Positions 49,682 through 63,274 of a stretch of 64,000 nucleotides of DNA are shown piece by piece. The notes below the pieces were generated by a model, which was not told where the DNA came from, did not search any database, and worked only from the letters and a program-made list of their open reading frames with translations. This stretch comes from an uncultured Bacilli bacterium (GTDB lineage Bacteria; Bacillota_I; Bacilli_A; RF39; UBA660): contig CALVQR010000001.1 in the NCBI GenBank assembly GCA_944358265.1, forward strand, positions 5,042 to 69,041, given 5' to 3'. Every line of letters starts with the position of its first letter. Position 1 is the stretch's first letter. A program made the position numbers and the translations under genes.

Positions 49682-50167
49682 TTATCTTAATTTATCAACT
49701 AATCTTTCTGCAGAGTTATCTAATTCATTTAAAGTAGTATTTTTAATTACAAAATCATAATTATAGTTTTCAACACTAGCATCAGAATAATTAGTTGTAA
49801 TTAAATCTAAGCCTTCTCTTTTAACCAACAAAGTTTTGGCATTAAACTTATTTACTGCACGACTTATTTCTTCTGGTTCTCTTATGTGTATAAACATAAT
49901 CTCATCATTAGATTTTTCAAATTTTTCCACAGCATTTTTAATACTATTAAACGACATATCATTATACTCTGTAGTAAGTTTTTTTAAATCACTTAAAAAT
50001 TTGCGATCTTTATCTGTTTTAGTCCCAGACCACCCTATTAACTTTGCTACTTCCTTTACCTTATCCACAGAAGAAAAATTATATACTTTTGCGTATTTAG
50101 AAACATATTCTACAAAAGTATCTTTACCGCTTCCACCGGTACCATTAATTATTATTATCTCTTTCAC
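49682..50167 (-). CDS. P-loop nucleotide/nucleoside kinase-like protein (dNMP kinase-like)
   Basis: Walker A IINGTGGSGKDTF in a 161-aa single-domain protein. Confidence 0.45.
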   Translation of the reverse strand: MKEIIIINGTGGSGKDTFVEYVSKYAKVYNFSSVDKVKEVAKLIGWSGTKTDKDRKFLSDLKKLTTEYNDMSFNSIKNAVEKFEKSNDEIMFIHIREPEEISRAVNKFNAKTLLVKREGLDLITTNYSDASVENYNYDFVIKNTTLNELDNSAERLVDKLR

Positions 50168-50642
50168 TATAAATTCACCCTCACACTCTATTTTATTTCT
50201 TTCATTTTTTGTATTATTATACTACAATCTATAAAATTTTAAATCAAAATCTTTTAATATAATACAAATAATACTATGAAACTCAAATTAAAGAAAAAGA
50301 GTCAATCGTAAACTCTTTCTTTATTACGTATAAATTTTAAAAAATTATTATTAAACATAATATTTAATACAAAAATATACAAAAATTCTTAATTTTTAAT
50401 TTTAGACAAATATAATTTATTAGGCATATAACATAAAATATAAATTTTTAATACCAATCATGTTTTTCATTTCTATCTAAAGCATTAATTTTATTCACTT
50501 CATTATTTATTATACCATTGTATAAAAACATTTTTAAATCTTGCATTTTGAATTGAATTTATTGTTTCAATTACACTAACATCTTTATTATTACTAACTA
50601 CAACTGCAAATTCTCTATTATTCATTCTATTTGTCCTACTAA

Positions 50643-51182
50643 CTAAAATATTTCAACCAATTTTGCAGGATATATTTCATATAATCCAAAATTTTCAACA
50701 ACTAATTCTAGCTCTTTGAAATCTTTTTCTAATATATTTTTCATTTTAATTATTTTTTCATAGTTTTTATCTATATGAATAGTTATATGAAAAGTGAAAT
50801 TATCTGGATTATATCTCTCACTAGGGCATAAATTATAAATCTCTCCTTGTAATTTTTCTAATTCTATATTTTTTTCTAACTCAAAATATAAACAATAACT
50901 ATTTTCTTTTCCCTTCATAATATTTAAACCTATAACTTTTATCTTTAATTTAGAAAACTTTATTTGCTTTAACTTTAAAATTATATTTTCTTCATCAGCA
51001 ATATTCCAAGCACACATGGTAAAATGAATTGGTAATGTATCTACTTCTTCACGATTATCAACATTTTTACCAAAAGGAACTTTACATATATTTTTATTTT
51101 CGCCTAATTTATTTATTCTTTCATTAATCTTAATTGTTGAATTTTTATCAAAATGTGATATTAATGTTATTCTTTCATTCAT
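50643..51182 (-). CDS. 2H phosphoesterase superfamily protein (LigT/2',5'-RNA ligase-like cyclic phosphodiesterase)
   Basis: Two HxTx motifs about 80 aa apart: LPIHFTMCAW and FHITIHID. Confidence 0.6.
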   Translation of the reverse strand: MNERITLISHFDKNSTIKINERINKLGENKNICKVPFGKNVDNREEVDTLPIHFTMCAWNIADEENIILKLKQIKFSKLKIKVIGLNIMKGKENSYCLYFELEKNIELEKLQGEIYNLCPSERYNPDNFTFHITIHIDKNYEKIIKMKNILEKDFKELELVVENFGLYEIYPAKLVEIF

Positions 51183-51493
51183 ATTTTTTCCTTTTCAAAA
51201 ATTTTAAATTGAATACTATTATCTATATGATTTCTCATTTCATATCCATTTATATGATATTTTGGTTTTATTTACTATCTATATAGGTTAAAATCAGCAT
51301 CTTTATCTTTGAAACTTAAAAAGTAATACCTTTAATAATAACCCTGTGTGGTTCTATATAATTTAAACTTGTATGTTCTATGTTTTTGATACTACCATTT
51401 ATTATTGTAGGTTTCATATTACAGAAATCGCATATAAAATCTATTTTTTCTTTAGTTCTTCATCAAAATGTAATTCTTTTGTTTTTAATTTGA

Positions 51494-52801
51494 TCATCTA
51501 AATTTATGCTTTTGATTTTCTGGAATAAATAATTGTTTCTTTTTCATCGTTAAAACTAAAGCATGTAATCTTGCCCTCAAATCAAGTAATTGATTAGTAG
51601 TATAAAAATCATCCGCATTACAATCATATGGTAAATTATATTTTTCTGCATAGGAATAGAGCATTGGATATTCATGTTCTTCAAGATATTTCCAATTTTT
51701 CTCCTCTGCATCATAAATAAAATCTAAGCCACAAATTGCTCCAATCTCACGACTACAATTACTTGCTATCTTTACACATGCGTTCATTACATCTGGAGGA
51801 ACAATAGCATTGTTTGGATTAATACCATGTGCCCTTAAAATTTCTTGTTCTAATTCAGAATAGCTATCCTTTTCAAGTAATATACTATTTCCACCAGCAA
51901 TTGTATTTGAAACAATACTTTCACTGCTTAAAAAATATGGGGACGATGGATCAGATAAATACCTATCAAAAAGTCCATAATATTTTTCTTTAGTATTGGT
52001 AGAAGATTCCGAATACTTAAGACTTGATGCTAAAATATCGCCAGATGATGATGTAAGAACCCTTAGAGATGTATTATATTTAGTTGGTGTTTTAATAAAT
52101 TTTTGTATTCTCATATTTTGATGAAACTCTTTTTTATAATCTACGAAATCAATACTTATTCCTCTATTAGAACGCCCATTTTCATCAAATTCTAAATCAG
52201 GAAAACATGACCACTGACGTTTCACTATTTCTATTCTTTTTTGACGGTCATAAAAATTTATTTCATTATAGAATCTTTTTAGTATAGCTATTTGTTCAGG
52301 TGTTCTTAATATAAATTTTTCTGTTCCACCCTGGCCTTCTTCATTTTTAAGAACAAATGGTAAACTTGGTAATATTTCTGGAAATGAATCAGTAGGGAAT
52401 GAAATACTAAATGGCTCTGTTATTCCTTCACTGTTCAGATAAAAGTCAATTTTATTTTTTTTCTTAAAAGCATAATCTTCTTTAGTATTATTAATGTGTT
52501 TATCTAAACAAGGGGTTAAAAAAAATGCGTCATTTCCAACCATACTACTATCTGTCACAACTTTATAGCCATTCTCGAACAAATATTTAAATAATTCTTT
52601 ATATGCTTCATAAACAGGATTACTTTGACTAATTGGAACATCAGGTAAATTTATACAATGTAATTCTTGATTTATCCATTCTGGTTTAATATAAAAAAAA
52701 CCTGCATCAATATCAAAATAAATCTCTTGTCCATATCCTAATGGTAATTGGATAGATTTCATAAAACCACCTTTCTCATCACTATCTATTGATATTGTCA
52801 A
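51494..52801 (-). CDS. Divergent ATP-grasp-like protein (tentative)
   Basis: PFVLKNEEGQGGTEKFIL resembles the Lys plus Gly-rich ATP loop. GLDFIYDAEEKNWKYLEEHEYP resembles the C-terminal D...ExN Mg-binding block, with N replaced by H. Confidence 0.35.
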   Translation of the reverse strand: MTISIDSDEKGGFMKSIQLPLGYGQEIYFDIDAGFFYIKPEWINQELHCINLPDVPISQSNPVYEAYKELFKYLFENGYKVVTDSSMVGNDAFFLTPCLDKHINNTKEDYAFKKKNKIDFYLNSEGITEPFSISFPTDSFPEILPSLPFVLKNEEGQGGTEKFILRTPEQIAILKRFYNEINFYDRQKRIEIVKRQWSCFPDLEFDENGRSNRGISIDFVDYKKEFHQNMRIQKFIKTPTKYNTSLRVLTSSSGDILASSLKYSESSTNTKEKYYGLFDRYLSDPSSPYFLSSESIVSNTIAGGNSILLEKDSYSELEQEILRAHGINPNNAIVPPDVMNACVKIASNCSREIGAICGLDFIYDAEEKNWKYLEEHEYPMLYSYAEKYNLPYDCNADDFYTTNQLLDLRARLHALVLTMKKKQLFIPENQKHKFR

Positions 52802-53074
52802 TGTACAAGTGTGTTTCTAATTTGACAAAAATCAATTTGCCTTCTATAACAATTTTATCATATTTTAAAATATATTAAAACTCAAAATATAAAAGTTCGA
52901 GTTTGATATCAATCTGGTGCCTTTGATAAAGTTATCTACAACTTTTATCAAAGGCAATTAATATATAAATCAATCACTAAATTGATTATATCATCTTTTT
53001 ACCAATAATAAACATTTATTTTTCATTTTACAAAAAAATATTTATTCATTACTGATAAAATTGATAAATACAAT

Positions 53075-53293
53075 TTAATATAAAAAGTCTTTTCTAGTAT
53101 ATGGCGAAATAGTTTCTTCACCAACATTACCATTATCATTTTTATAATATCTTTTACATTTATTACAATGTAATATTTTACCACTAGGCATTAAATACGT
53201 AAGCGGTTCATTACAATTAGGACATTTTAATATGTTTTTCTTTTTCATTGCATTTTCTACTATCTTTCTTTGATTATTATTTAATTCATTCAT
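53075..53293 (-). CDS. Small zinc-ribbon protein
   Basis: 72 aa with CPNC...CNKC. Confidence 0.5.
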   Translation of the reverse strand: MNELNNNQRKIVENAMKKKNILKCPNCNEPLTYLMPSGKILHCNKCKRYYKNDNGNVGEETISPYTRKDFLY

Positions 53294-53311
53294 ATTTATA
53301 TATCCTTTCTT

Positions 53312-54235
53312 TTAACCATCTATAGTAACGTGTGATAGTTCTAATCCATATAATTCAATAGTAATTAAATGTTCGTCCAATTCGTTATTTAAGTAGGTTA
53401 GCTCGCCACAATTAACTTTACTAACATAAATAGTTGGCTTTCCTATTTTTTCAATAATTTCATCTCTTGTATGATTTTTAACATACCATTCATCCTTTTT
53501 GAATTTTTCAAATAGATGATTTATTACTTCATATTTATTTTTAAAATAATATTCTATTATTTGATCAGCATAATCAGTAAGTTCTTCTTTAACTTCGTCA
53601 GCTGTAATAATGACTTTTAATCCTTTATACTTATATTCAAATCCATTTTTTGTTTTATAGATTGAATCATCATATAATTCTTTTATAAAAGTATTCCAAT
53701 CATCAGTAATTACATCAAAAGTATCTGTTTCATGATTATAAATTACTATTTTATTTGTTCCTCTTTCAAAACATAAAGTATCACCAAATTCTAATTCTGC
53801 AAAAGGTACAATTTTGTTTTTTAATTCTGAATCAAAACTTTGAAATTTTAGAATATAAGTTTTACTATTAGGATCCATAGAATAGAAATATCTAACTAAT
53901 TTTTCCGTTCCATTTGATAATCCTAAAATATTTTTTTCAGGTTTTAAAGTTGAATTATTTAACAAGTATTTTTTATAATCTTCTACAAATGTGTAATTAA
54001 TTTTTTTTTCAACATTGTTTATATATTGTAATATTTCAGAGTCTAACTTTTTTGTTTTGTTATCAATACTTTTCAAAATACTTTCCACTTCTTCATTTGT
54101 TACTTTTAATTCTTTTAATTTATCTTGATCCTTATTAGATAAAGCATCAATTATTTGTTTTGTTCTATCATTTTCCATTTTTCTCTCTCCTTTATTTAAC
54201 ATGTTTACCACCATTTGCCAATAATATACTTTCAT
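53312..54235 (-). CDS. SUKH (SMI1/KNR4) family immunity-like protein with N- and C-terminal extensions
   Basis: INYTFVEDYKKYLLNNSTL (LPxdYxxFL...NG-like) and IVPFAELEFGDTLCFERGTNKIVIYNHETDTFDVITDDWNTFIKELY match the SUKH-1 core. Confidence 0.5.
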   Translation of the reverse strand: MKVYYWQMVVNMLNKGERKMENDRTKQIIDALSNKDQDKLKELKVTNEEVESILKSIDNKTKKLDSEILQYINNVEKKINYTFVEDYKKYLLNNSTLKPEKNILGLSNGTEKLVRYFYSMDPNSKTYILKFQSFDSELKNKIVPFAELEFGDTLCFERGTNKIVIYNHETDTFDVITDDWNTFIKELYDDSIYKTKNGFEYKYKGLKVIITADEVKEELTDYADQIIEYYFKNKYEVINHLFEKFKKDEWYVKNHTRDEIIEKIGKPTIYVSKVNCGELTYLNNELDEHLITIELYGLELSHVTIDG

Positions 54236-54246
54236 TATTCTTTACC

Positions 54247-55815
54247 CTATATTCCTTTTCTTGAAATATTATTATAGATTTCATCACTTTTATTAATGTC
54301 ATTTACATAATCATAACTACCTCTTACCATTTCATATTTACTATATATTTTTTCAATTAAAGGCAATGCAATACTAAAATCAATATCATTATTATCTAAA
54401 TTAATTATATAATCTACAACTTTACCTTTTTCACATCTCAACTCATCAATATCTTTTAATTCCATTATTTGAAAAATTGTTGGTTCTTTATCAGACCATT
54501 TAGTCAAAGATATAGTTAAACCAGCATTTTGAATTTCTTTTCTTATTCTATCAACTAAATCAATATCTTCTATATCTATAAAAGAATTCATGATTATATC
54601 AATACGTCTATAAATTTCACTACCATCAATGTTATCAATTCCTTTTCCATTATTAGCAATTAATTCATTTAATATATCAATTTGTTCTAAAAAATGATTA
54701 AAATCTCTATAATAAATCTCTATTTCATTACATATTTGACTAAGTTTATCCATTCTTCCATTTTGAATTCCACTATTAATAAGTGTATACTTACTTATGA
54801 AAGCTTCTGTAATTGCTTCTCTCAATCCTCCAGTGTTGTATGCATCATTATATTTATCAAATAAATCATTTTTATAGTAATCCGATATTTTAGTATTACT
54901 AGGTTTAATTGACTCTAGGTAATCAATTGCACTTTTCTTTTTTATTTCAAAATCAATTTGTTGATCTGTTGCTATTGTACGCATAGAACTTTTATATGAA
55001 ATATCTTTTTTTGATGGTTTAATCTTTTTCTGTTTTATTAAATCAATAAACATTCTTAATGAATTAATATCACTCATTCTTTTTAATCTTTCAATATCAA
55101 ATGAAAGTAAATTTAAAAATTGATTCCCAGTATCTTGGATTTTTACGGTATTATTTTGAATTAACAAATCAAGTTTTTTTTGCAAATCTTCCGCAGTACA
55201 TGGAGAACTATATTCTACTAAAAATTTTTCCATTTCTTCATAAGTTCCAAAGTCCATAAACCAAGGTCTTCCACGAAAAGGGGTACCTATTTTTATATAA
55301 AACAAGTCATTTTCTGCATATTCTTTAAATTTTGTCATTACAAAAGGTCTTATTGGATTTGAGAGTTCTGTAAACCATTCTTGCAATTTATGCTCTATTT
55401 TATATTGAATTGGATTAACAGAATAATTACATTCGCTCATCTTTATTTCATCGTTTTTATCACCAAATGATTCTCTATCATTTTTTTGTAAATCTAATAT
55501 TGGGGTTTTTTTATAAATAAACCAATTCCTTAACGTACGATATTCATATAATAATGTTTTAAAATTTGAAATAATTTTAGGTTGACTAAAAAGATGTGTT
55601 GCCTGATCTGCTTGTGGCTGTGTTTGAAATTCACCTATAAAATGATCAGTATATTTTGCATTTTTAAGCCAATTTTGTAATTTTTCAATTTTTTTCTCCA
55701 TTTTTTTATCTAATTGTTCAATGGTGAAATTATTGAATTCAACTCCAAAAATATCAAAATCTTGTGCCATATATCTTATATCTATTTTTCTATTGCCTAA
55801 TAGATTTGTTTGCAT
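54247..55815 (-). CDS. Large hypothetical protein (522 aa), island component
   Basis: ORF track; no motif recognised by eye. Separated from the SUKH gene by 11 nt, suggesting an operon. Confidence 0.45.
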   Translation of the reverse strand: MQTNLLGNRKIDIRYMAQDFDIFGVEFNNFTIEQLDKKMEKKIEKLQNWLKNAKYTDHFIGEFQTQPQADQATHLFSQPKIISNFKTLLYEYRTLRNWFIYKKTPILDLQKNDRESFGDKNDEIKMSECNYSVNPIQYKIEHKLQEWFTELSNPIRPFVMTKFKEYAENDLFYIKIGTPFRGRPWFMDFGTYEEMEKFLVEYSSPCTAEDLQKKLDLLIQNNTVKIQDTGNQFLNLLSFDIERLKRMSDINSLRMFIDLIKQKKIKPSKKDISYKSSMRTIATDQQIDFEIKKKSAIDYLESIKPSNTKISDYYKNDLFDKYNDAYNTGGLREAITEAFISKYTLINSGIQNGRMDKLSQICNEIEIYYRDFNHFLEQIDILNELIANNGKGIDNIDGSEIYRRIDIIMNSFIDIEDIDLVDRIRKEIQNAGLTISLTKWSDKEPTIFQIMELKDIDELRCEKGKVVDYIINLDNNDIDFSIALPLIEKIYSKYEMVRGSYDYVNDINKSDEIYNNISRKGI

Positions 55816-55914
55816 TTAATTCACCTCATTTTTTTGTTCTATTATTTCCCATTTTTTTCTCTTTTCTATATAATGTAATTATTTAAGATTAGTATAGTTT
55901 TTTTTTAAGATAAA

Positions 55915-57168
55915 TTACATCATCCTTTTTCCACTACGTTCAACATTTTCAGCTATTTCAGTTTCTTCTGTGATGTCATCAAACAAATTATCATCAATAC
56001 CAATTTCACTCATTCTTCTTTTATAAATCATTTCACGGAATTGCTGTTCTACAATTTGCTGTCTTTCTGGCTCTAATTCATCATAGTCATATTTTTCTTT
56101 AATCATTTCCCATTCTTGATCTTCTCTCGTTTTATTTTCATTAATAGAAGTATTTACTTGTGCCTGTTCTTTTTTATATTGATTATCTTTCTTTCGACGA
56201 AGAAATACCATAGACATAAGACCATCTAATCTTTTTTCTTTCTTATCAAACTTACTTGTTACATAAGGAACTCCTTCTTGCTTTTTTCTTTCTTCAAATG
56301 CAACTTTATCTTGCATATTTTTTATTTTATCATTTTTTAAGATTTCAATAATTGAATCAATATTTATTGCTTGTCCTTTTAAACCATTTATGTATCTTAT
56401 TGTTTGAAAATCTATATCTGATTCATTTTGTTTAAATGTCTTTGCCACTAAATATCTTAACATACCATCTACATTGCTTGTAATTAAACTATCTTCATTA
56501 ATATACTTTAAACCATTTTTGCCATAAATAGATTTTAAAATATTTAATTCATCTCTACCAATAGCATTTCTTTTCATTGGCAACATTCTTTCCATAGCAT
56601 TAGCAAATATTTCTAGTCTATATTTACGCATTTCTAATTTTTGTTTTACTTGTTCTGAAATATCATCTATTTTTGATAAATCAATATCCTCTGCATCATG
56701 TAAAATATCCGCACCAATTCTAACTCGATATAATGTATAATTATCAGCAGGAACAAAATCCGTTATCCATTCGTCACCTTGAAATCCATTATTATAATGC
56801 CCCCTCAATTGATCTGAAATAAAAGGTTTTCTTACATTTAATCCATCTGTATTAATTTGATATATTACTGCAACAGATGGTATTATTATTCGTTCGTTAT
56901 AAATTGATAGATTATTATGAATCGGTATTCCATCATGGTGTAAATCACCATATGCTGATGTTACCATACTCAAATTGTCAGACATATAAACACCATATTC
57001 ATTTCCATCAGTAACAGTCTTTCTACCATACTGATCAATAATAGGAGCATAATTAACTTTTAAATCAACACCAGAAAATTTAAAAGATTGTAACTTATTA
57101 TAATCAATTTTTATCCCTCTATATAATACACTTGGTTTATTTTCCATATTTACCTCCTTTATCTTCAT
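55915..57168 (-). CDS. Hypothetical protein (417 aa), island component
   Basis: ORF track. The N-terminal half has weak R / S-T-S-like patterning (LYRGIKI...MVTSAY) but no convincing catalytic signature. Its stop is 8 nt from the start of the next gene. Confidence 0.45.
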   Translation of the reverse strand: MKIKEVNMENKPSVLYRGIKIDYNKLQSFKFSGVDLKVNYAPIIDQYGRKTVTDGNEYGVYMSDNLSMVTSAYGDLHHDGIPIHNNLSIYNERIIIPSVAVIYQINTDGLNVRKPFISDQLRGHYNNGFQGDEWITDFVPADNYTLYRVRIGADILHDAEDIDLSKIDDISEQVKQKLEMRKYRLEIFANAMERMLPMKRNAIGRDELNILKSIYGKNGLKYINEDSLITSNVDGMLRYLVAKTFKQNESDIDFQTIRYINGLKGQAINIDSIIEILKNDKIKNMQDKVAFEERKKQEGVPYVTSKFDKKEKRLDGLMSMVFLRRKKDNQYKKEQAQVNTSINENKTREDQEWEMIKEKYDYDELEPERQQIVEQQFREMIYKRRMSEIGIDDNLFDDITEETEIAENVERSGKRMM

Positions 57169-57175
57169 TTAAAAT

Positions 57176-57790
57176 TTAATTAATACAATCTATATCAATA
57201 ACTTTGTTATCCTTAAATATAATTTTATACACGCCTGGACTTTTTGGCTTTTCATAAACAATTACTTTTTTGTTATATTTTATATAAATCTTCTCATTAA
57301 CAAATTTAAAATCACAATGATTTTGTAAGAATGATAAAAGCATTATTCCATGAATAACTACAATTGATTTTTCATTATTTTGCAAAATATCTTCTATGAA
57401 ACTATCAAATCTCAAGTCTATATCATTCAAAGATTCTCCATTATTAACTTTAAAATTTTTATCTTTAAATGAATGCACTGTAAAATCACTAGGAAGTTCA
57501 TTTAGAAATTTTATTCCAAATTCTCTTTCATTTATTCTATCATCTAGTTTTATTTTTGTTTTATTTGATTCACTTAAATATTTAGCAGTTGCTATAGCAC
57601 GAAAAGAATTACTTGAATATATATTTTTAATATTCTTTAATTCTTCTATCTCACATAGTTTTTGAGCTTTTTCTTCTCCTTGAACAGATAATATCATATT
57701 TTTATTATATTCATACCATGACATATTTTCTTGATTATCATACTCAACAAATGGACCAGAATGTCTTATTAAATAAACTATTTTTTCCAA
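57176..57790 (-). CDS. Histidine phosphatase superfamily (phosphoglycerate-mutase-like branch) protein
   Basis: N-terminal RHG-type motif VYLIRHSGP and a downstream catalytic His context SIVVIHGIMLLSF. Confidence 0.6.
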   Translation of the reverse strand: MEKIVYLIRHSGPFVEYDNQENMSWYEYNKNMILSVQGEEKAQKLCEIEELKNIKNIYSSNSFRAIATAKYLSESNKTKIKLDDRINEREFGIKFLNELPSDFTVHSFKDKNFKVNNGESLNDIDLRFDSFIEDILQNNEKSIVVIHGIMLLSFLQNHCDFKFVNEKIYIKYNKKVIVYEKPKSPGVYKIIFKDNKVIDIDCIN

Positions 57791-57995
57791 TTAGAACACC
57801 TCATATCTTTATTAAATTATAGCACAACACATAAATATATTCTATATCTAAGGCTGAACTAACATAGTGATTTACAAAGAATGTCTTAATTATTAAATCA
57901 TATCTGTAATATACAATTGTATTCTGGTCTTGCTTTTTCTCAACACGTAGATACTCATTAATTTTATATTTAACTTTTTTGTTATAAATATTTTG

Positions 57996-59735
57996 TTATA
58001 AATATATTGATATTGGATATTTTTTAAAAGACTCTATAGTTTGATAATCAATATCTTTTATTAAGATACTGGCTTCAACTTTACTATCCATTAATAAACT
58101 GCAACACAACTGTATTTCTACATTAGAATTATTAGTTTTAATGTTCATTAGTTCTTTTATTTCTTCATCTGTTAGCTTGTTTTCACGCTTTAAAATCTGA
58201 CACAAGTTTATATAATATATATCATGCGAATCAGAATCTTTTTCTAGTAAAATATTTATCAAAAACTTTGCGTATGATAATAAATTTGAATTTTTATTAT
58301 AATCATATGCTTTTATTATTTCCAATACTTGCGCATTTAGCAGTTCATATTCACCATCTCTTAAACTATAATCTGTAAAGATTTCTTTCATTTCATCAAA
58401 ATTTATATCATCTGAAAGGTATGCCTCAGAATTAAGAATAAGATATAAGTTATTAGTATTAATTTCTTTTTCGTTGTTCTGATATTTAAAAACATACTTT
58501 TTATAATCTATATTATTCCATAAGCTTTCTATATAAAAACTTCCTTTTTCGTTTTTGTGAGCCATTATAGATAGTCTTAAATCTCGTATTTCTATAGAAC
58601 CAATCAAGCTTATCTCACTTTTTAAATTTAGAGGAATCTTATCTTCTATTGCTGTAAGCCAAATATTGAGTTTATTGAAATCTTTATCTTGCCACTCATC
58701 AAAATTTAAATCTTTATTAACATTATGTTTTAACAATATTTGTTTTAATTCTTCATATTGAGATAACAATGTTTTAAATTTAGAGAATTCTTTTTCGGGA
58801 AACTCAACTACAAATTCTTTCTCATTAATCAAAAAACCTTTATTTATAAAAGCCTTATTTATAAAATGAAGAGCCTTTATACGTTCTAATAAACTTCCAC
58901 GAATTTTTATGTTAAAAGTATGTTTCGTTAAATTAAAATTGAAACTATTCCCAAAATATATTATTTGTTCATTTAATTTTGTTTCTAATTTTATGCCTTT
59001 ATAAATAATCTCTTTCTCTGTATCTGAAATAACAGCGTTCAAGTTTTCAATTATATTATATATTATCCCAAAACTTGCACCAATAGGGTATTCATGTTCG
59101 TCAAAAGTATAAATAAATTTACTCATTCCAACTAATTTTTGTGGATTGAAATTTTGCATATCCTTATCCCATACACTAAATCTTGCTACTTTACCATTTT
59201 CTACAGTTAGATTTTCTTGATTGAACATATTTTGATTCATCTTTTTTTGTATTTCCTTATCTATTTGAAAATTTCTACATATACTTTCTAAATGCGAGGC
59301 ATCTTTTATTTCTTTAATTTTCACTCTAATAGTATCAGATGAATCATTATTCTTTAAATAATTATTTATGTGGTATGGTAACAAAGATGAAAAATATATT
59401 TTAAAATCATCACTTTCTCGTTTAAATAAACACATAAGTAATAATGTTCCATTTTTTTTTAAAAAATTTTGCATATCTATAACTGATAAATCAAAATAAC
59501 TTTTGTCTGTTAATTTCTTGTTATTTGTGGTTCTTCCTTTGACTTGTACATCAATTGAAAACTGAAAATTTTCCTTTTTATCAATATTTCCATGATAAAA
59601 ATCAATAGTACCATCCCAAGAAATAGATTTATCATTGCTTTGAATATGTCCATCAGCACTTTCTATTTTATCAATTAGTTCATTAATTTTAGTAATAGCT
59701 CTTTGTTCTGTTTTTTTACTACTAATATTTCCCAT
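57996..59735 (-). CDS. DUF4365-like (restriction-endonuclease-fold) N-terminal domain protein with large uncharacterised alpha-rich C-terminal region
   Basis: SWDGTIDFYHGNIDKKENFQFSIDVQVKGRTTNN...LLLMCLFKRESDDFKIYF reproduces the D-G-iD ... vQvK ... hydrophobic core ... yW/yF pattern of DUF4365 / PD-(D/E)xK-like modules. Confidence 0.5.
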   Translation of the reverse strand: MGNISSKKTEQRAITKINELIDKIESADGHIQSNDKSISWDGTIDFYHGNIDKKENFQFSIDVQVKGRTTNNKKLTDKSYFDLSVIDMQNFLKKNGTLLLMCLFKRESDDFKIYFSSLLPYHINNYLKNNDSSDTIRVKIKEIKDASHLESICRNFQIDKEIQKKMNQNMFNQENLTVENGKVARFSVWDKDMQNFNPQKLVGMSKFIYTFDEHEYPIGASFGIIYNIIENLNAVISDTEKEIIYKGIKLETKLNEQIIYFGNSFNFNLTKHTFNIKIRGSLLERIKALHFINKAFINKGFLINEKEFVVEFPEKEFSKFKTLLSQYEELKQILLKHNVNKDLNFDEWQDKDFNKLNIWLTAIEDKIPLNLKSEISLIGSIEIRDLRLSIMAHKNEKGSFYIESLWNNIDYKKYVFKYQNNEKEINTNNLYLILNSEAYLSDDINFDEMKEIFTDYSLRDGEYELLNAQVLEIIKAYDYNKNSNLLSYAKFLINILLEKDSDSHDIYYINLCQILKRENKLTDEEIKELMNIKTNNSNVEIQLCCSLLMDSKVEASILIKDIDYQTIESFKKYPISIYL

Positions 59736-60142
59736 TTACATCATCTCCTAACAAGATATTTAATATCTATATTATATCACGAAAAAAGTCGCATTTTTTT
59801 GCAACTTATATTTCTAAATCAAAGTCATCATGATCTTTATGTTTATTATCTTCTTTACTCCAATTATAATCTTCTTTTATGTCATCTATGGTTTTATCAC
59901 TAAATATCCTATGTTCGTATAAGCCTTTTGAAAATTTTTAATAATCTTCACGTTCTTTGTCTTTGACGAATATTTTATGTTTGATAAAATTGATTAATCT
60001 ATCAAATAAATCTTTAAAGTAATCTACTAGTTCTTCAAGATGCTTATTATCTTTTTTTAACTCTTTAATCTCTTTATTTTCGATATTTTTTGATAAAGTA
60101 TCTACTTTAAGAGATATTGCTTCATTGTTTTCGGTTAGTATT

Positions 60143-60608
60143 TTAATTTTTTATTTTCCAATTTTCTAAAGTATTATTTATGTGCTTTAAATTGTATGTT
60201 CCATTAAGAATTGCATTCTTAACTGCATATCTTGTTATTTCGTTATCTTCCCATTTGGAAATGTATTTATATTCAGTTGGACTTAACAGTCTTCCAAATT
60301 CTTGCTCTATATAACTATAAATATTAATATTATCCATTATTCTTATATTCTTCTATTGTGGTTATTTCGTTGGTTGAAATTAAGTGTTTTATTGCTGTTC
60401 TTATCTCTTGCTCTGACAAACCTAATTCTTTAGATAATTGTTTTCTACTTGTTACAAAACTACCTCTTGAAGCTTCTATCCCCCTAAACAAACCATCTTC
60501 CCAATTTGCTTTTAATATGCAATGAATGAATACTGCTTTTGTATTTACATCTGTATACCCTTCCCAATTGAGAAATTTATTATGAATTTTTATCCAACTT
60601 TCATTCAT
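60143..60608 (-). pseudogene. Phage replisome-organiser / DnaD-domain gene split by a frameshift
   Basis: 60330..60608 encodes a wHTH N-part (FVTSRKQLSKELGLSEQEIRTAIKHL). 60143..60337 encodes a DnaD C-domain (YIEQEFGRLLSPTEYKYISKWEDN...AVKNAILNG...NTLENW). The two ORFs overlap by 8 nt in different frames. Confidence 0.55.
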
Positions 60609-61270: not shown

Positions 61271-61386
61271 GTCTAAATTCTTTGATTCTATTATTCCTTT
61301 TTACCTCCTATCTCTATGTTAATCATACACTACACTTTTTTACTTTGTCAACAGTAAACAACAATTTCTTTATTTTTTCCTTGAAT

Positions 61387-61410
61387 AATTGTAAAGTATG
61401 TATTACAATT
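61387..61410. promoter_or_regulatory. Candidate operator: perfect 8-bp inverted repeat AATTGTAA-N8-TTACAATT between divergent Cro-like and CI-like genes
   Basis: Lies about 20 bp upstream of the CI-like gene start (61432) within TTGAAT...TACAAT promoter-like hexamers. Confidence 0.4.
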
Positions 61411-61431
61411 GTCGTAAAGGAGATGTTTTGT

Positions 61432-62121
61432 ATGAATTACATAGGTAGCTTTATAAAAAATTATAGAGGTGATATGTCTCTAAGAGAATTTGCTGATAAA
61501 TGTGGAATTAGTCATACACATTTAGATAGTATCGAAAAAGGATTCGACCCTAGGACTGGAAAACCTGTAAGAGTAACGGTTGATACATTAAAAAAAATAG
61601 CATCTGCTATGAATATGTCTGTTAATGATTTGTTAATTCAATCTGGTGACGTTAAATTAGAAGAATTAAATTTTGACAATGCAGAACTGGTTTCGCCAAT
61701 AAAAGAAAGTATAAAAATACCTGTATTAGGTAAAATTCCTGCAGGAATGCCTTTTGAAGCAATAGAAGACCAATATACAATTGATTTTGAAGAAATACCC
61801 TATTCTTGGTTAAAAGGAGGAAATCAATTTTTTGCTTTAAAGTTAGATGGTGACAGTATGGAACCAGAATATCACAACAATGATATAGTTATTTTTAAGA
61901 AAACAAACACATGTAAATCTGGTCAAGATTGTTGTATAAAAATAAATGGGTATGATGCTACATTTAAAAGAGTAAAAAGACAAGAAAATGGAATTATGAT
62001 TATTCCACTTAACGAAAATAATTCAACAGGTTTTACTGCTACTTTTTATACAAACGAAGATATAATAAATAAACCAATAGAAATTATTGGAGTTGTCAAA
62101 CAAATAAGAAGAAATATTTAA
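61432..62121 (+). CDS. CI/LexA-like repressor: XRE HTH plus S24 peptidase domain
   Basis: N-terminal HTH (MSLREFADKCGISHTHLDSIEKG), C-terminal S24 motif LKLDGDSMEPEYHNNDIVIFKK and Lys in TFKRVKR. Start trimmed to MNYIGSF behind an AAGGAG RBS. Confidence 0.75.
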   Translation: MNYIGSFIKNYRGDMSLREFADKCGISHTHLDSIEKGFDPRTGKPVRVTVDTLKKIASAMNMSVNDLLIQSGDVKLEELNFDNAELVSPIKESIKIPVLGKIPAGMPFEAIEDQYTIDFEEIPYSWLKGGNQFFALKLDGDSMEPEYHNNDIVIFKKTNTCKSGQDCCIKINGYDATFKRVKRQENGIMIIPLNENNSTGFTATFYTNEDIINKPIEIIGVVKQIRRNI

Positions 62122-62189
62122 ATTTATAAAATATTATAAAAAATATATTTATTAGTAAATTTTTTAATAGATGTAAAGGAGGTATAAGT

Positions 62190-62783
62190 ATGAAATATTG
62201 CACTAAATGTGGGAATCAATTAAATGATAATGCTATCTTTTGTACTAAATGTGGTATAAATTTGATTAATGGTTCTACCAATTCAAATAACACTATACAA
62301 AATATTAACAATATATCATGTCCAAAATGTCATAGTAATAATATTAATTTTCAAGTTATTAATGAAAGTACACTTGTGACAAAACATCACGGAATATTAT
62401 GGTGGTTATTAATTGGATGGTGGTGGATTTTTGTTAAATGGATTTTTCTTACAATACCAGCATTAATCTTTGCTATATTTGTTGGAAAAAGAAAAAAAAT
62501 AAAAAATACTACAAAAAATTGGAATCATTTTTGTGAATTTTCAAAAATAATAAAAATGTTCTTTTTAAGTGATTTTAACATAATAAGATTAATATACAAT
62601 AGTCAAATAACAGATACAAGTAGAATTGAGATATATCCAATTGATATATTATCCTCATTGGATATTGTCAATACTGCGATGAAATCTATAATGACATCAA
62701 GTAATGCTAATTCTAGGTCAGATAAATATGTGAATTTAATATCTATAGGTAAAAAGTTTTATGAGTCAGTTATAAATTCATAA
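62190..62783 (+). CDS. Membrane protein with N-terminal double zinc ribbon
   Basis: CTKCG...CTKCG...CPKCHS followed by a Trp-rich TM segment (ILWWLLIGWWWIFVKWIFLTIPALIFAIFV). Confidence 0.5.
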   Translation: MKYCTKCGNQLNDNAIFCTKCGINLINGSTNSNNTIQNINNISCPKCHSNNINFQVINESTLVTKHHGILWWLLIGWWWIFVKWIFLTIPALIFAIFVGKRKKIKNTTKNWNHFCEFSKIIKMFFLSDFNIIRLIYNSQITDTSRIEIYPIDILSSLDIVNTAMKSIMTSSNANSRSDKYVNLISIGKKFYESVINS

Positions 62784-62794
62784 GGAGGTACCAT

Positions 62795-63274
62795 ATGTCT
62801 AAAATTAGTAATGTATTAACAATGCTTGAATATTTAAGTACTGGAAAAAAATATAGCATTTCTGAATTATCTGAAAAATTGGAAGTAAGTCCTAGAATGA
62901 TTAGAGTGTACAAAGATGAGATTGAAAAAGCAGGCATTTATATAGATACGATTAAAGGTCCATATGGTGGATATGTTTTAAATCAAAATATAAATGTTCC
63001 TAAGAGATTTATAACTCCTAATACTATTGATATTAAAAATAAGGAATTTTATAATTTAATTAATAGAGCAATTAAAGAAAAAAGAAAATGTTATATAGAA
63101 TATTATTCTAAAGATAAAAAAGAAATTTCTGTAAGAACTATTCATCCATATGATTTGATTTTACTTGGTTCAGAATGGGGAGTCGCAGCTTATTGTGAGA
63201 AAAAGCAGGAAATAAGACATTTTTATATAAATCGCATTAAAAATATAAAATTCCTAGAAAATTTTTATAACTGA
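62795..63274 (+). CDS. HTH-WYL domain transcriptional regulator
   Basis: N-terminal HTH (ISELSEKLEVSPRMIRVYKDEIEKAGIYI) and a C-terminal WYL-like block IHPYDLILLGSEWGVAAYCEKKQEIRHFYINRI. Confidence 0.6.
   Translation: MSKISNVLTMLEYLSTGKKYSISELSEKLEVSPRMIRVYKDEIEKAGIYIDTIKGPYGGYVLNQNINVPKRFITPNTIDIKNKEFYNLINRAIKEKRKCYIEYYSKDKKEISVRTIHPYDLILLGSEWGVAAYCEKKQEIRHFYINRIKNIKFLENFYN

What the first reader, a model, noticed from the sequence alone, without database searches (positions are those of the whole stretch)
50643..59735. Eight co-oriented genes of unusual domain composition embedded in a decayed prophage: candidate uncharacterised defense/counter-defense (nucleotide- or RNA-end-processing) system
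Between a frameshifted phage dnaD-like gene and 300-470-bp decayed non-coding gaps sits a compact minus-strand array of eight genes. In order they are a DUF4365-like nuclease-fold protein (579 aa), a histidine phosphatase (204 aa), two large unknowns (417 and 522 aa), a SUKH immunity-like protein (307 aa), a zinc ribbon (72 aa), a divergent ATP-grasp-like protein (435 aa) and a 2H phosphoesterase (179 aa). None is a housekeeping gene. Three predicted activities converge on phosphoester or ligation chemistry on nucleic-acid ends or cyclic/ADP-ribosyl nucleotides: the 2H cyclic phosphodiesterase, the PGM-type histidine phosphatase and the ATP-grasp ligase. A nuclease-fold sensor/effector and a SUKH immunity module lie in the same array. 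As far as I know this combination does not correspond to any named defense system. One alternative is that it is a phage-encoded anti-defense or RNA-repair arsenal, since 2H enzymes can degrade cyclic-oligonucleotide signals. Another is a polymorphic-toxin/immunity remnant.
Basis: partly seen in the sequence, partly recalled or inferred. Interest (0 to 1): 0.8.

Follow-up and report, generated by a model that had tools for sequence, protein, structure and literature searches.

The report
Patchwork of mobile-element cargo genes
The eight genes are real and mostly have the predicted enzyme folds, but they are not one system: they are leftover cargo from several decayed mobile elements, and one of them belongs to an undescribed ADP-ribosyltransferase-like family.

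Summary
All eight minus-strand ORFs exist at the stated coordinates. Most domain calls hold:
- 2H phosphoesterase with both HxT motifs
- branch-1 histidine phosphatase
- SUKH
- CxxC zinc ribbon
- ATP-grasp, by fold
- DUF4365-like nuclease, with invariant D..QxK

One "unknown" (417 aa) has an ADP-ribosyltransferase (ART) fold. It belongs to a family with no match in Pfam, NCBIfam, PHROGs or PADLOC. The 522-aa protein remains an orphan.

In related genomes, close homologs (60-94% identity) of five genes occur without the others. No other genome examined carried more than three of the eight genes together.

DNA breakpoints and gene relics show at least two decayed integrative mobilizable elements (IMEs; serine recombinase plus Mob_Pre relaxase). 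A separately mobile ATP-grasp gene lies between them.

Likely independent units:
- the nuclease gene (579 aa)
- phosphatase plus ART (204, 417 aa)
- 522-aa orphan plus SUKH plus zinc ribbon
- ATP-grasp (435 aa)
- 2H (179 aa)

Co-orientation is not informative, because about 80% of genes in the window share that strand. Interest is modest. The ART-like family and a repeated about 130-nt structured element at the unit boundaries are the parts worth following.

The parts
50506..50625 (-). Truncated 5' end (41 codons) of an AP_endonuc_2 gene. In intact mobile elements this gene follows the 2H gene.
   Evidence: blastn shows 94% identity over 50507-51190 to L032-L035. tblastn gives 73% identity to residues 1-41 of the 265-aa protein.
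50643..51182 (-). g179, a 2H (LigT-like) phosphoesterase. It is the surviving cargo gene of a decayed integrative mobilizable element.
   Evidence: LigT_PEase 23.7 bits and TIGR02258 35.4 bits. HFT53 and HIT132 are present. The 94%-identical homolog P0469 sits in the order recombinase, Mob_Pre, 230-aa gene, 2H, AP_endonuc_2, NUDIX at four different insertion sites.
51319..51497 (-). Frameshifted relic of the 91-aa ORF that marks the left end of the 2H-carrying mobile element.
   Evidence: blastn shows 90% identity to L033-L035. tblastn gives 76% identity to residues 3-60 of 91, plus a second frame for residues 1-18.
51494..52801 (-). g435, a divergent ATP-grasp-fold enzyme (probable start M14 at 52762). 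It is a separately mobile single-gene unit conserved across the clade.
   Evidence: 100 homologs at 30-100% identity. The AlphaFold2 model has pLDDT 88.8. All top 50 Foldseek PDB hits are ATP-grasp enzymes (RimK 5zct, E 4e-6). Homologs sit in unrelated contexts in L026-L031.
52864..52993 (-). 'el', a repeated intergenic element of about 130 nt. It has an extended -10 box, two hairpins and a terminator hairpin, and it marks unit boundaries.
   Evidence: 25 nhmmer hits in 479 kb of related loci and one in the window. Fold z-scores are -3.9 to -5.0 in 5 of 7 copies. There is no Rfam match.
53075..53293 (-). g72, a small CxxC...CxxC zinc-ribbon protein that travels together with the SUKH gene.
   Evidence: Only weak zinc-ribbon Pfam hits. 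CPNC24 and CNKC43 are present. A 74%-identical homolog lies directly after the g307 homolog in L043.
53312..54235 (-). g307, a SUKH/SMI1-KNR4 immunity-type protein with a C-terminal extension of about 120 aa (probable start M20 at 54178).
   Evidence: SUKH_6 45.1 bits and SMI1_KNR4 39.5 bits. Its N-terminal domain is 80% identical to 169-aa SUKH genes that directly follow g417 in L011 and L012. A full-length 80%-identical homolog is the terminal cargo of another mobile element in L043.
54247..55815 (-). g522, an orphan protein. It is a precise 1.63-kb single-gene insertion between g417 and the SUKH gene and a candidate partner or effector for SUKH.
   Evidence: No credible family match (only sub-threshold hits, E 0.036-0.059). 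No hit in the viral, metagenome, phage or plasmid collections or in the PDB. Singleton cluster at 90% identity. Insertion breakpoints and the flanking duplication are shown.
55826..55852 (-). Eight-codon remnant (MGNNRTKK*) of a SUKH gene start, left behind downstream of g417.
   Evidence: Alignment with the g417-SUKH junctions of L011 and L012.
55915..57168 (-). g417, with an N-terminal ADP-ribosyltransferase-fold domain (about residues 10-160) and a long helical C-terminal part. It belongs to a family that matched no model in any of the four libraries searched.
57176..57790 (-). g204, a branch-1 histidine phosphatase. Its stop codon lies 7 nt before the g417 start.
   Evidence: His_Phos_1 63.5 bits. 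It lies next to g417 in the window, L009 and L039/L040. In L036-L038 it occurs without g417, fused to an HsdS fragment.
57996..59735 (-). g579, with an N-terminal DUF4365-like PD-(D/E)XK nuclease domain and about 400 aa of unknown function. It is a stand-alone unit.
   Evidence: phrog_9827, full length, E 2.7e-49. About a third of homologs carry PF14280. D41, Q64 and K66 are invariant. A homolog at 27% identity is in Clostridium phage D-1873. Its contexts lack the other seven genes.
59809..59934 (-). Relic homologous to the 44-aa ORF that precedes the cargo gene in intact mobile elements.
   Evidence: tblastn gives 64% identity, E 4e-13. blastn shows 71-77% identity over 59807-60035 to L020-L025 and L012.
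59956..60087 (-). Possible relic of the C-terminus of a Mob_Pre relaxase (weak evidence).
   Evidence: tblastn gives 39% identity over 44 aa, E 9e-4.
60143..60608 (-).
   Evidence: ORF list. The precomputed Pfam annotation of L008 gives DnaB_2. HTH_36 matches at E 0.0045.
61282..62121 (+). Divergently oriented repressor of the CI/LexA type (HTH_3 plus Peptidase_S24). It bounds the region on the right.
   Evidence: Pfam.

Best explanation
The array is a mosaic of cargo genes left by integrative mobilizable elements (IMEs) that inserted one after another and then decayed. The host is an uncultured, very AT-rich gut Firmicute. The closest named relative is Candidatus Ventrenecus.

Intact relatives of these elements encode a serine recombinase, a Mob_Pre relaxase and a variable cargo slot. 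The slot often ends at a repeated structured element of about 130 nt, here called 'el'.

In the window, one element has lost its recombinase and relaxase. Only a 44-aa ORF relic and a weak relaxase relic remain upstream of g579. Its cargo slot survives as g579, g204, g417, g522, g307 and g72, followed by el. Next comes g435, a single-gene unit bounded by el copies in other genomes. After that lies the stump of a second element: a relic of its left-end ORF, the 2H gene g179, and a truncated AP_endonuc_2 gene.

The genes therefore most likely act as independent small units:
1. g579 is a stand-alone nuclease of the PD-(D/E)XK / DUF4365 type joined to a large C-terminal domain. I infer it is a single-gene conflict or defence protein.
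2. g204 and g417 form a closely spaced pair. g417 is inferred to be an NAD+-dependent ADP-ribosyltransferase of the R-S-E type (R17, S63, E133). It would modify a protein or nucleic-acid target for the benefit of the element. The histidine phosphatase is an optional partner.
3. g522, g307 and g72 form a unit of a variable upstream gene, a SUKH neutraliser and a zinc ribbon. It is arranged like a toxin-immunity cassette and was inserted into an older g417-SUKH pair.
4. g435 is an ATP-grasp ligase with an unknown substrate.
5. g179 is a 2H phosphoesterase whose native partners are AP_endonuc_2 and NUDIX genes, not the genes in this array.

Shown: the genes, the folds, the mosaic breakpoints, the relics and the scattered homolog contexts. 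Inferred: all enzymatic activities, all targets, and any role in defence.
For: Scattering of close homologs:
- g579 homologs in L001-L007.
- g417 as the sole cargo of an IME in L020-L025, and alone in L010 and L013-L015.
- g435 in L026-L031.
- g179 in IMEs L032-L035, at four insertion sites.
- g204 fused to an HsdS fragment in L036-L038.
- g307 plus g72 as the terminal cargo of a third IME, L043, which ends at el next to the YbeY-Era-RecO genes.

Breakpoints lie close to the ends of each unit. Relics of IME genes fill the non-coding gaps.

g522 is a precise insertion flanked by a duplicated ribosome-binding site and SUKH start.

The block def-el-g435-el is present in L039 and absent in L017, between the same g417 and 317-aa genes. 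The two 317-aa proteins are 98.7% identical.

Gaps between genes are 7, 11 and 18 bp within the proposed units and 99-311 bp between them.

PADLOC gave no hit for the seven larger proteins and only weak sub-threshold hits for g72.
Against: - A partial association recurs. g204-g417 is found in three contexts (window, L009, L039/L040). In L039/L040, g435 lies 1.5 kb downstream of that pair. Some functional linkage among these three genes is therefore not excluded.
More distant co-occurrences could have been missed.
- All loci come from metagenome assemblies, so chimeric contigs are possible.
- The relaxase relic is weak (E 9e-4).
- No empty insertion site was found, so the element boundaries and attachment sites are inferred.
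- Genes brought together by accretion can still cooperate, as in defence islands.
Confidence: 0.75

Rival explanations
1. One reading: the eight genes form one uncharacterised defence or counter-defence system. It would act on nucleic-acid ends or on cyclic or ADP-ribosyl nucleotides.
Against: - No other genome examined has more than three of the eight genes together.
- The 2H gene belongs to a different decayed element, and relics lie between it and g435.
- g435 is an independently mobile unit.
- g522 and g72 are singleton clusters at 90% identity.
- Co-orientation is expected from the strand bias.
- PADLOC matched none of the seven larger proteins, only weak sub-threshold hits for g72.
Confidence: 0.04
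2. The six-gene cargo block from g579 to g72 works as a cooperative defence island of one mobile element. Its nuclease, ADP-ribosyltransferase and SUKH modules would give layered protection or addiction, even though each module can move on its own.
For: The six genes lie between an IME cargo-leader relic and an el-type right end. The same order g579-g204-g417 occurs in L009. DUF4365 is the effector nuclease of the SPARDA defence systems (PMC10810196). SUKH and ADP-ribosyltransferase domains are typical conflict-system domains (PMC3482391).
Against: - L009 diverges directly after g417.
- The g204 allele is only 69% identical in L009, whereas its neighbours are 91-93% identical, which points to mosaic recombination.
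- Neither PADLOC nor any anti-phage family matches the six proteins; only g72 has weak sub-threshold PADLOC hits.
- No function was tested.
Confidence: 0.12
3. The centre of the array is a remnant of a secreted polymorphic-toxin locus. g417 and g522 would be orphan toxin cassettes and g307 their immunity gene.
For: - SUKH genes lie directly downstream of g417 in L011 and L012, and downstream of g522 in the window.
- Replacement of the upstream gene in front of a conserved SUKH start is typical of toxin-cassette recombination (PMC3482391).
- Some g417-family members carry the domain at the C-terminus of 500-730-aa proteins.
- An Rhs ADP-ribosyltransferase toxin is among the top fold matches.
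Against: - g417 is a complete protein with its catalytic domain at the N-terminus, and no trafficking domain was found.
- In most contexts it has no SUKH or other partner. This includes its occurrence as sole IME cargo and its occurrences among housekeeping genes in three other phyla.
- No secretion-system genes or full-length toxin genes lie nearby.
Confidence: 0.1
4. An RNA-repair or ADP-ribose-metabolite pathway. A Tpt1-like enzyme (g417) would remove RNA 2'-phosphates, the 2H enzyme would open the resulting cyclic phosphate, and the histidine phosphatase would remove the remaining phosphate.
Against: - The conserved residues of g417 fit the R-S-E pattern of pertussis-toxin-like enzymes.
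- Whether the Arg-His-Arg-Arg tetrad of Tpt1 is present was not aligned or tested here.
- The 2H gene arrived with a different element, and elsewhere it is never found with g417.
- No RNA ligase is present, because ATP-grasp is not an RNA-ligase fold.
Confidence: 0.04

Closest known systems
Integrative mobilizable elements (IMEs) of Firmicutes with a serine recombinase and a MobV/Mob_Pre relaxase (general knowledge of the streptococcal IME literature; not checked in a paper here)
   Same: Intact relatives (L020-L025, L032-L035, L043) have the order recombinase, Mob_Pre, a short variable cargo. They sit at several chromosomal sites, and two lie in tandem in L033. The window carries relics of their non-cargo genes.
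   Different: In the window the recombinase and relaxase are gone, so the region is a fossil and not an element. Attachment sites were not defined. The el repeat at the cargo ends matched no Rfam family, and I did not search the literature for it.
Toxin-immunity cassettes with SUKH immunity proteins (Zhang et al. 2012, PMC3482391)
   Same: A SUKH gene lies directly downstream of a variable gene. The upstream gene is exchanged in front of a conserved SUKH 5' end. An ADP-ribosyltransferase-fold protein acts as one of the upstream partners.
   Different: No trafficking or secretion domain was found. The catalytic domain is N-terminal. g417 usually occurs without any SUKH gene. Toxicity and neutralisation were not tested.
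R-S-E ADP-ribosyltransferases (pertussis toxin S1; phage T4 Alt, ModA and ModB; Rhs toxin TreX)
   Different: There is no sequence-level match to any ADP-ribosyltransferase model in the four libraries or in the PDB. The motif reads QGDE rather than ExE or QxE. S63 is the consensus residue but is below 90% conservation. A helical extension of about 250 aa is present. The family also has an invariant E57.
DUF4365 (DREN) effector nuclease of the SPARDA short-Argonaute systems (PMC10810196)
   Same: The N-terminal domain of the g579 family gives weak PF14280 hits and has an invariant D..QxK.
   Different: There is no Argonaute gene and no APAZ domain. g579 is a stand-alone 579-aa protein with an unrelated C-terminal region. 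No PADLOC model matches it.
ATP-grasp ligases in conflict systems (R2K clade: CDC123, DUF4343; PMC4431377)
   Same: The ATP-grasp fold and an occurrence in mobile, conflict-type surroundings.
   Different: No hit to D123 or DUF4343 or any other ATP-grasp Pfam model. The usual ExN motif reads EEH. Most contexts contain metabolic genes. Membership of the R2K clade was not established.

Membership tests
Single conserved multi-gene system or operon | The component genes lie together in several independent genomes | tested here: not met
   Five genes were traced to other genomes at 60-94% identity. No other genome examined has more than three of the eight genes together.
Single conserved multi-gene system or operon | Gene spacing compatible with a single transcript | tested here: inconclusive
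   The gaps are 205, 7, 99, 11, 18, 273 and 311 bp. The promoter and terminator scan was not informative in 25% GC DNA. The 273- and 311-bp gaps hold a terminator-bearing repeat and gene relics.
Known anti-phage defence systems (PADLOC-DB 2.0) | A match of any component to a defence-system model | tested here: not met
   The seven larger proteins have no hit at E up to 0.1. Only the 72-aa zinc ribbon has weak hits (E about 1e-3).
2H phosphoesterase superfamily (g179) | Two H-x-T/S motifs and a match to a family model | tested here: met
   HFT53 and HIT132 are present. LigT_PEase gives 23.7 bits against a cut-off of 23.3. TIGR02258 gives 35.4 bits against a cut-off of 65.7, so g179 is not the ThpR equivalog.
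Histidine phosphatase superfamily, branch 1 (g204) | A Pfam match above the cut-off, the RHG-type motif and a second catalytic histidine | tested here: met
   His_Phos_1 gives 63.5 bits against a cut-off of 21.7. RHS is at residue 9 and HG at residue 147. No NCBIfam equivalog reaches its cut-off, so the substrate is unknown.
SUKH / SMI1-KNR4 immunity proteins (g307) | A domain match above the cut-off | tested here: met
   SUKH_6 gives 45.1 bits (cut-off 27) and SMI1_KNR4 gives 39.5 bits (cut-off 25.4).
SUKH / SMI1-KNR4 immunity proteins (g307) | Neutralises a toxin encoded next to it | not testable with these tools
   Only adjacency is seen: to g522 in the window, and to g417 in L011 and L012.
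ATP-grasp superfamily (g435) | The ATP-grasp fold | tested here: met
   The model has pLDDT 88.8 and pTM 0.87. All top 50 Foldseek PDB hits are ATP-grasp enzymes with probability 1.00 and E from 4e-6. TM scores are only 0.3-0.48.
ATP-grasp superfamily (g435) | A sequence-model match and the canonical ATP- and Mg-binding residues | tested here: inconclusive
   There is no Pfam hit. The only NCBIfam hit is an ATP-grasp model at 15.6 bits. K139, R234, D347 and E361 are invariant, but EEH replaces ExN.
DUF4365 / PD-(D/E)XK nucleases (g579) | A match to PF14280 and a conserved catalytic D...(E/Q)xK | tested here: inconclusive
   The window protein has no Pfam hit at E up to 0.1. About 30 of 95 homologs carry precomputed weak PF14280 hits. 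D41, Q64 and K66 are invariant and E10 is at least 90% conserved. No structure was predicted.
ADP-ribosyltransferase superfamily (g417) | The ADP-ribosyltransferase fold | tested here: met
ADP-ribosyltransferase superfamily (g417) | A conserved catalytic triad (R-S-E or H-Y-E) | tested here: inconclusive
   R17 is invariant and E133 is at least 90% conserved. S63 is the consensus residue but is below 90% conservation. There is no ExE or QxE motif; the sequence reads QGDE.
ADP-ribosyltransferase superfamily (g417) | Binds NAD+ and transfers ADP-ribose | not testable with these tools
   A biochemical assay is needed.
Integrative mobilizable element | Encodes its own recombinase and relaxase | tested here: not met
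   The window has only relics: a 44-aa ORF homolog, a weak Mob_Pre C-terminal match and a relic of the 91-aa ORF. Intact elements occur in relatives. The window region is therefore a fossil.
Prophage | Phage structural, packaging or lysis genes and an integrase | tested here: not met
   No such gene was found among the 20 flanking and largest ORFs scanned. There is no nucleotide match to the phage collection. Only a CI-like repressor and DnaD-like fragments are present.
Polymorphic toxin system | An N-terminal trafficking domain with a C-terminal toxin domain, followed by an immunity gene | tested here: not met
   No trafficking domain was found in g417 or g522. The catalytic domain of g417 is N-terminal. 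The immunity-like gene order is present.

The most novel reading that the evidence does not exclude
Two linked possibilities are not excluded by the evidence.

(a) g417 founds a new family of mobile-element-borne ADP-ribosyltransferases. It has 209 clusters at 50% identity, matches no model in the four libraries searched, and is spread across Firmicutes, Ignavibacteriales and Patescibacteria/Saccharibacteria. The enzyme would have optional histidine-phosphatase and SUKH partners and might act on nucleic-acid ends or on a conserved host protein.

(b) The repeated three-hairpin 'el' element is a functional RNA or a recombination site. It would define where serine-recombinase elements and single-gene units insert, giving this uncultured lineage a cassette-like system for capturing genes.
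Probability: 0.2. Interest if true: 0.65.

Novelty: new member of a known kind. Interest (0 to 1): 0.3.

Why it matters
For the scan, this is a useful negative result. A striking mix of domains in co-oriented genes can arise purely from the pile-up and decay of mobile elements in a genome with strong strand bias. Checking neighbourhood conservation separates such pile-ups from real systems.

Three things could repay further work:
- An ADP-ribosyltransferase-fold family with no model in the four libraries searched. It travels as the sole cargo of small mobilizable elements.
- A stand-alone DUF4365-type nuclease family that is also present in clostridial phages.
- A repeated structured element at the unit boundaries. 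It may explain how single genes are shuffled in these uncultured gut bacteria.

Tried and rejected
- Nucleotide search of the whole region against phage and plasmid records gave no match.
- PADLOC matched none of the seven larger proteins, only weak sub-threshold hits for the 72-aa zinc ribbon.
- g522 gave nothing in Pfam, NCBIfam, PHROGs or PADLOC. It also gave nothing in PDB sequence search, tblastn of phages and plasmids, or the IMG/VR and JGI metagenome scans.
- g435 and g417 were absent from viral contigs, and g417 was absent from phage records.
- PDB sequence and profile searches for g417, g435 and g579 gave nothing significant.
- An integron-like cassette array was considered, because gene-sized units are bounded by a repeat. 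I rejected it for the window. Only one el copy lies in the 64 kb, none lies between most of the array genes, and no integron integrase is present.
- A Cas12a-repeat or omega-RNA reading of the GTTGTAGAT core of el was considered. I dropped it because the complementary TCTAC stem and any Cas or TnpB gene are missing.
- A riboswitch reading of el was considered. I dropped it because the downstream genes are functionally unrelated and Rfam has no match.
- RNAalifold on the el copies supported only the terminator hairpin, because the P2 region aligns poorly. Folding each copy on its own was more informative.
- The promoter and terminator scan of the array was no better than shuffled sequence.
- A link between g435 and the neighbouring AAA_18 kinase was tested. 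The kinases in the window and in L029 are not detectably homologous.

Full report
**Observation.** The window has 20-32% GC. It carries ordinary chromosomal genes (DnaB, YchF, ParB, RmuC, NrdD, a PBP5-type carboxypeptidase, UvdE, SpaA-type pilins) and no phage structural genes. It comes from an uncultured gut Firmicute. An identical stretch lies on ENA contig L008. Relatives are labelled 'uncultured Bacilli/Clostridium/Firmicutes', and one is labelled Candidatus Ventrenecus. About 80% of genes in the window are on the minus strand. An eight-gene co-oriented run is therefore expected (P about 0.16-0.20), and a longer run of 14 housekeeping genes occurs in the same window.

**Domain assignments.**
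- g179 is a 2H phosphoesterase. It scores 23.7 bits on LigT_PEase, at the cut-off, and 35 bits on TIGR02258. Both HxT motifs are present.
- g204 is a branch-1 histidine phosphatase (63.5 bits), with the RHS and HG motifs.
- g307 has a SUKH domain (45 bits) followed by an uncharacterised C-terminal extension of about 120 aa.
- g72 has two CxxC pairs.
- g435 has no Pfam hit. An AlphaFold2 model built on 39 homologs (pLDDT 88.8) matches only ATP-grasp enzymes among the top 50 PDB hits, including RimK, L-amino-acid ligase, Ddl/VanA and biotin carboxylase. Probability is 1.00, but TM scores are low at 0.3-0.48, so the enzyme is divergent.
- g579 matches phrog_9827 over its full length (E 2.7e-49). 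It has a relative at 27% identity in Clostridium phage D-1873. About a third of its homologs carry weak DUF4365 hits. D41, Q64 and K66 are invariant, which fits a PD-(D/E)XK nuclease. DUF4365 is the effector nuclease of the SPARDA Argonaute systems (PMC10810196).
- PADLOC matched none of the seven larger proteins; only the 72-aa zinc ribbon gave two weak sub-threshold hits.

**The two unknown proteins.** g417 belongs to a family of 209 clusters at 50% identity. The family has no Pfam hit in 40 diverse members and no PDB sequence match. Its model (pLDDT 93.8) has a beta-rich N-terminal domain and long C-terminal helices.

R17 is invariant and E133 is at least 90% conserved. S63 lies between them, with spacing like that of R-S-E toxins. 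I conclude that g417 has an ART fold and infer, without a test, that it has NAD+-dependent transferase activity.

g522 stayed an orphan in every search and is a singleton cluster at 90% identity.

**Test of the one-system idea.** Close homologs were traced to other contigs.
- g579 (88% and 53% identity) has none of the other seven genes nearby.
- g417 at 90% identity is the sole cargo of a small integrative mobilizable element (IME). The element has a serine recombinase and a Mob_Pre relaxase and lies between the Smr and IreB/RuvX genes. g417 stands alone in L010 and L013-L015. A 169-aa SUKH gene follows it directly in L011 and L012. g579 and g204 precede it only in L009.
- Distant g417 relatives in Ignavibacteriales, Patescibacteria and Saccharibacteria are solitary among housekeeping genes.
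- g435 at 76% and 60% identity sits among metabolic genes.
- The 94%-identical 2H gene is cargo of another IME, next to AP_endonuc_2 and NUDIX genes. That element is inserted at four different sites.
- A g204 homolog (88%) is fused to an HsdS fragment between transposase genes.
- g307 and g72 together are the last cargo genes of a third IME (L043), which abuts the YbeY-Era-RecO genes.

The largest overlap with the window is in L039/L040, which carry g204, g417, a peptide deformylase gene and g435 in that order.

**How the array arose.** blastn breakpoints lie close to the ends of each unit. The non-coding gaps contain fossils of IME genes:
- 51319-51497 holds a frameshifted copy of the 91-aa left-end ORF of the 2H element.
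- 50506-50625 holds the first 41 codons of its AP_endonuc_2 gene.
- 59809-59934 holds a homolog of the 44-aa ORF that precedes the cargo gene in the g417 element.
- 59956-60087 holds a weak match to the C-terminus of a Mob_Pre relaxase.

g522 is a precise 1.63-kb insertion into a former g417-SUKH junction. An eight-codon SUKH start (MGNNRTKK*) remains after g417. The ribosome-binding site and SUKH start are duplicated on both sides of g522.

A repeated element of about 130 nt, 'el', lies at 52864-52993 between g72 and g435. It recurs at unit boundaries in related loci, with 25 hits in 479 kb. L017 has the order g417, el, 317-aa gene. L039 has g417, el, def, el, g435, el, and the same 317-aa gene at 98.7% identity. 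g435 therefore moves as a unit bounded by el.

**Most likely functional units.** Spacing is 7, 11 and 18 bp within the proposed units and 99-311 bp between them. Together with the co-occurrence data, this suggests five units: g579 alone, g204 with g417, g522 with g307 and g72, g435 alone, and g179 alone.

The central pairs look like effector-SUKH cassettes (PMC3482391). However, g417 lacks a trafficking domain and usually has no partner, so a classical secreted polymorphic toxin is unlikely. A pathway of Tpt1, a 2H enzyme and a phosphatase is tempting, but the separate origin of the 2H gene and the R-S-E-like residues of g417 contradict it.

**Verdict.** The interpretation as one novel eight-gene system is not supported. 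The region is a fossil pile-up of mobile-element cargo. It contains new members of known superfamilies, most notably an ART-fold family that matched no model in the four libraries searched.

**Limits.**
- All comparison loci are metagenome assemblies.
- g522, g307, g72, g204 and g179 could not be given full homology searches.
- Attachment sites were not defined.
- No activity was tested.

Noticed in passing
window 52864-52993 (minus strand); also L008 488-617, L017 484-615, L033 15945-16078, L039 908-1012, 3221-3330, 4152-4272 and 5911-6006, L043 7140-7254: A repeated intergenic element of about 130 nt ('el'). It has an extended -10 box (TGTTATAAT), two hairpins around a conserved core AAAGTTGTAGAT...CACCAGATTGATA, and a terminator hairpin. 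It has no Rfam match. Fold z-scores are -3.9 to -5.0 in 5 of 7 copies. It is nearly always co-oriented with the neighbouring genes and sits at the ends of mobile-element cargo and of single-gene units. It could be a small RNA, a leader sequence or a recombination site.
   Followed up: partly
L020-L025, L032-L035, L043: A family of small integrative mobilizable elements. Each has a 91-aa ORF, a serine recombinase and a Mob_Pre relaxase, plus a variable cargo of one to six genes. Two different members use the site downstream of the Smr gene, and L033 carries two elements in tandem.
   Followed up: partly
L032-L035 7275-9876: The native neighbours of the 2H gene are a 230-aa unknown protein, an AP_endonuc_2 (TIM-barrel) protein and a NUDIX hydrolase. 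This conserved four-gene cargo may be a real nucleotide or ADP-ribose-processing module. It is a better candidate for a functional unit than the window array.
   Followed up: no
L036-L038 8001-9254: A histidine phosphatase gene 88% identical to g204 is fused in frame to a type I restriction S-subunit (Methylase_S) fragment. The resulting 417-aa protein is seen on about 78 contigs and is flanked by DDE and rve transposase genes.
   Followed up: no
window 61282-63274 (plus strand): A divergently oriented trio lies just right of the array: an HTH_3/Peptidase_S24 repressor, a 197-aa zinc-ribbon protein and an HTH_11-WYL regulator. Regulators of this kind often accompany defence or mobile-element modules.
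   Followed up: no
L001 11931-15886 and L004 5070-8716: A cluster of a bPH_3 protein, a LysM protein and a 534-aa unknown protein recurs next to g579 homologs. It lies downstream of the 88%-identical homolog and upstream of the 53%-identical homolog. L004 also has SocA_Panacea-like and PT-HINT genes nearby.
   Followed up: no
window 49682-50167; L026 7111-7758; L029 7279-7764 and 9394-9897: g435 homologs tend to lie near small nucleotide-metabolism genes: guanylate kinase, dUTPase_2 and AAA_18-type kinases. The kinases in the window and in L029 are not detectably homologous, so any link is uncertain.
   Followed up: partly
L009 3186-3257 and 4021-4091: Two tRNA genes lie about 0.8 and 1.6 kb downstream of the g417 homolog in L009, overlapping or adjoining an ORF that had been listed mechanically.
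   Followed up: no
window 59786-59807 (minus strand): The only terminator-like hairpin found by the scan lies about 50 nt upstream of the g579 start. It suggests that g579 is not co-transcribed with the DnaD-like fragments.
   Followed up: no
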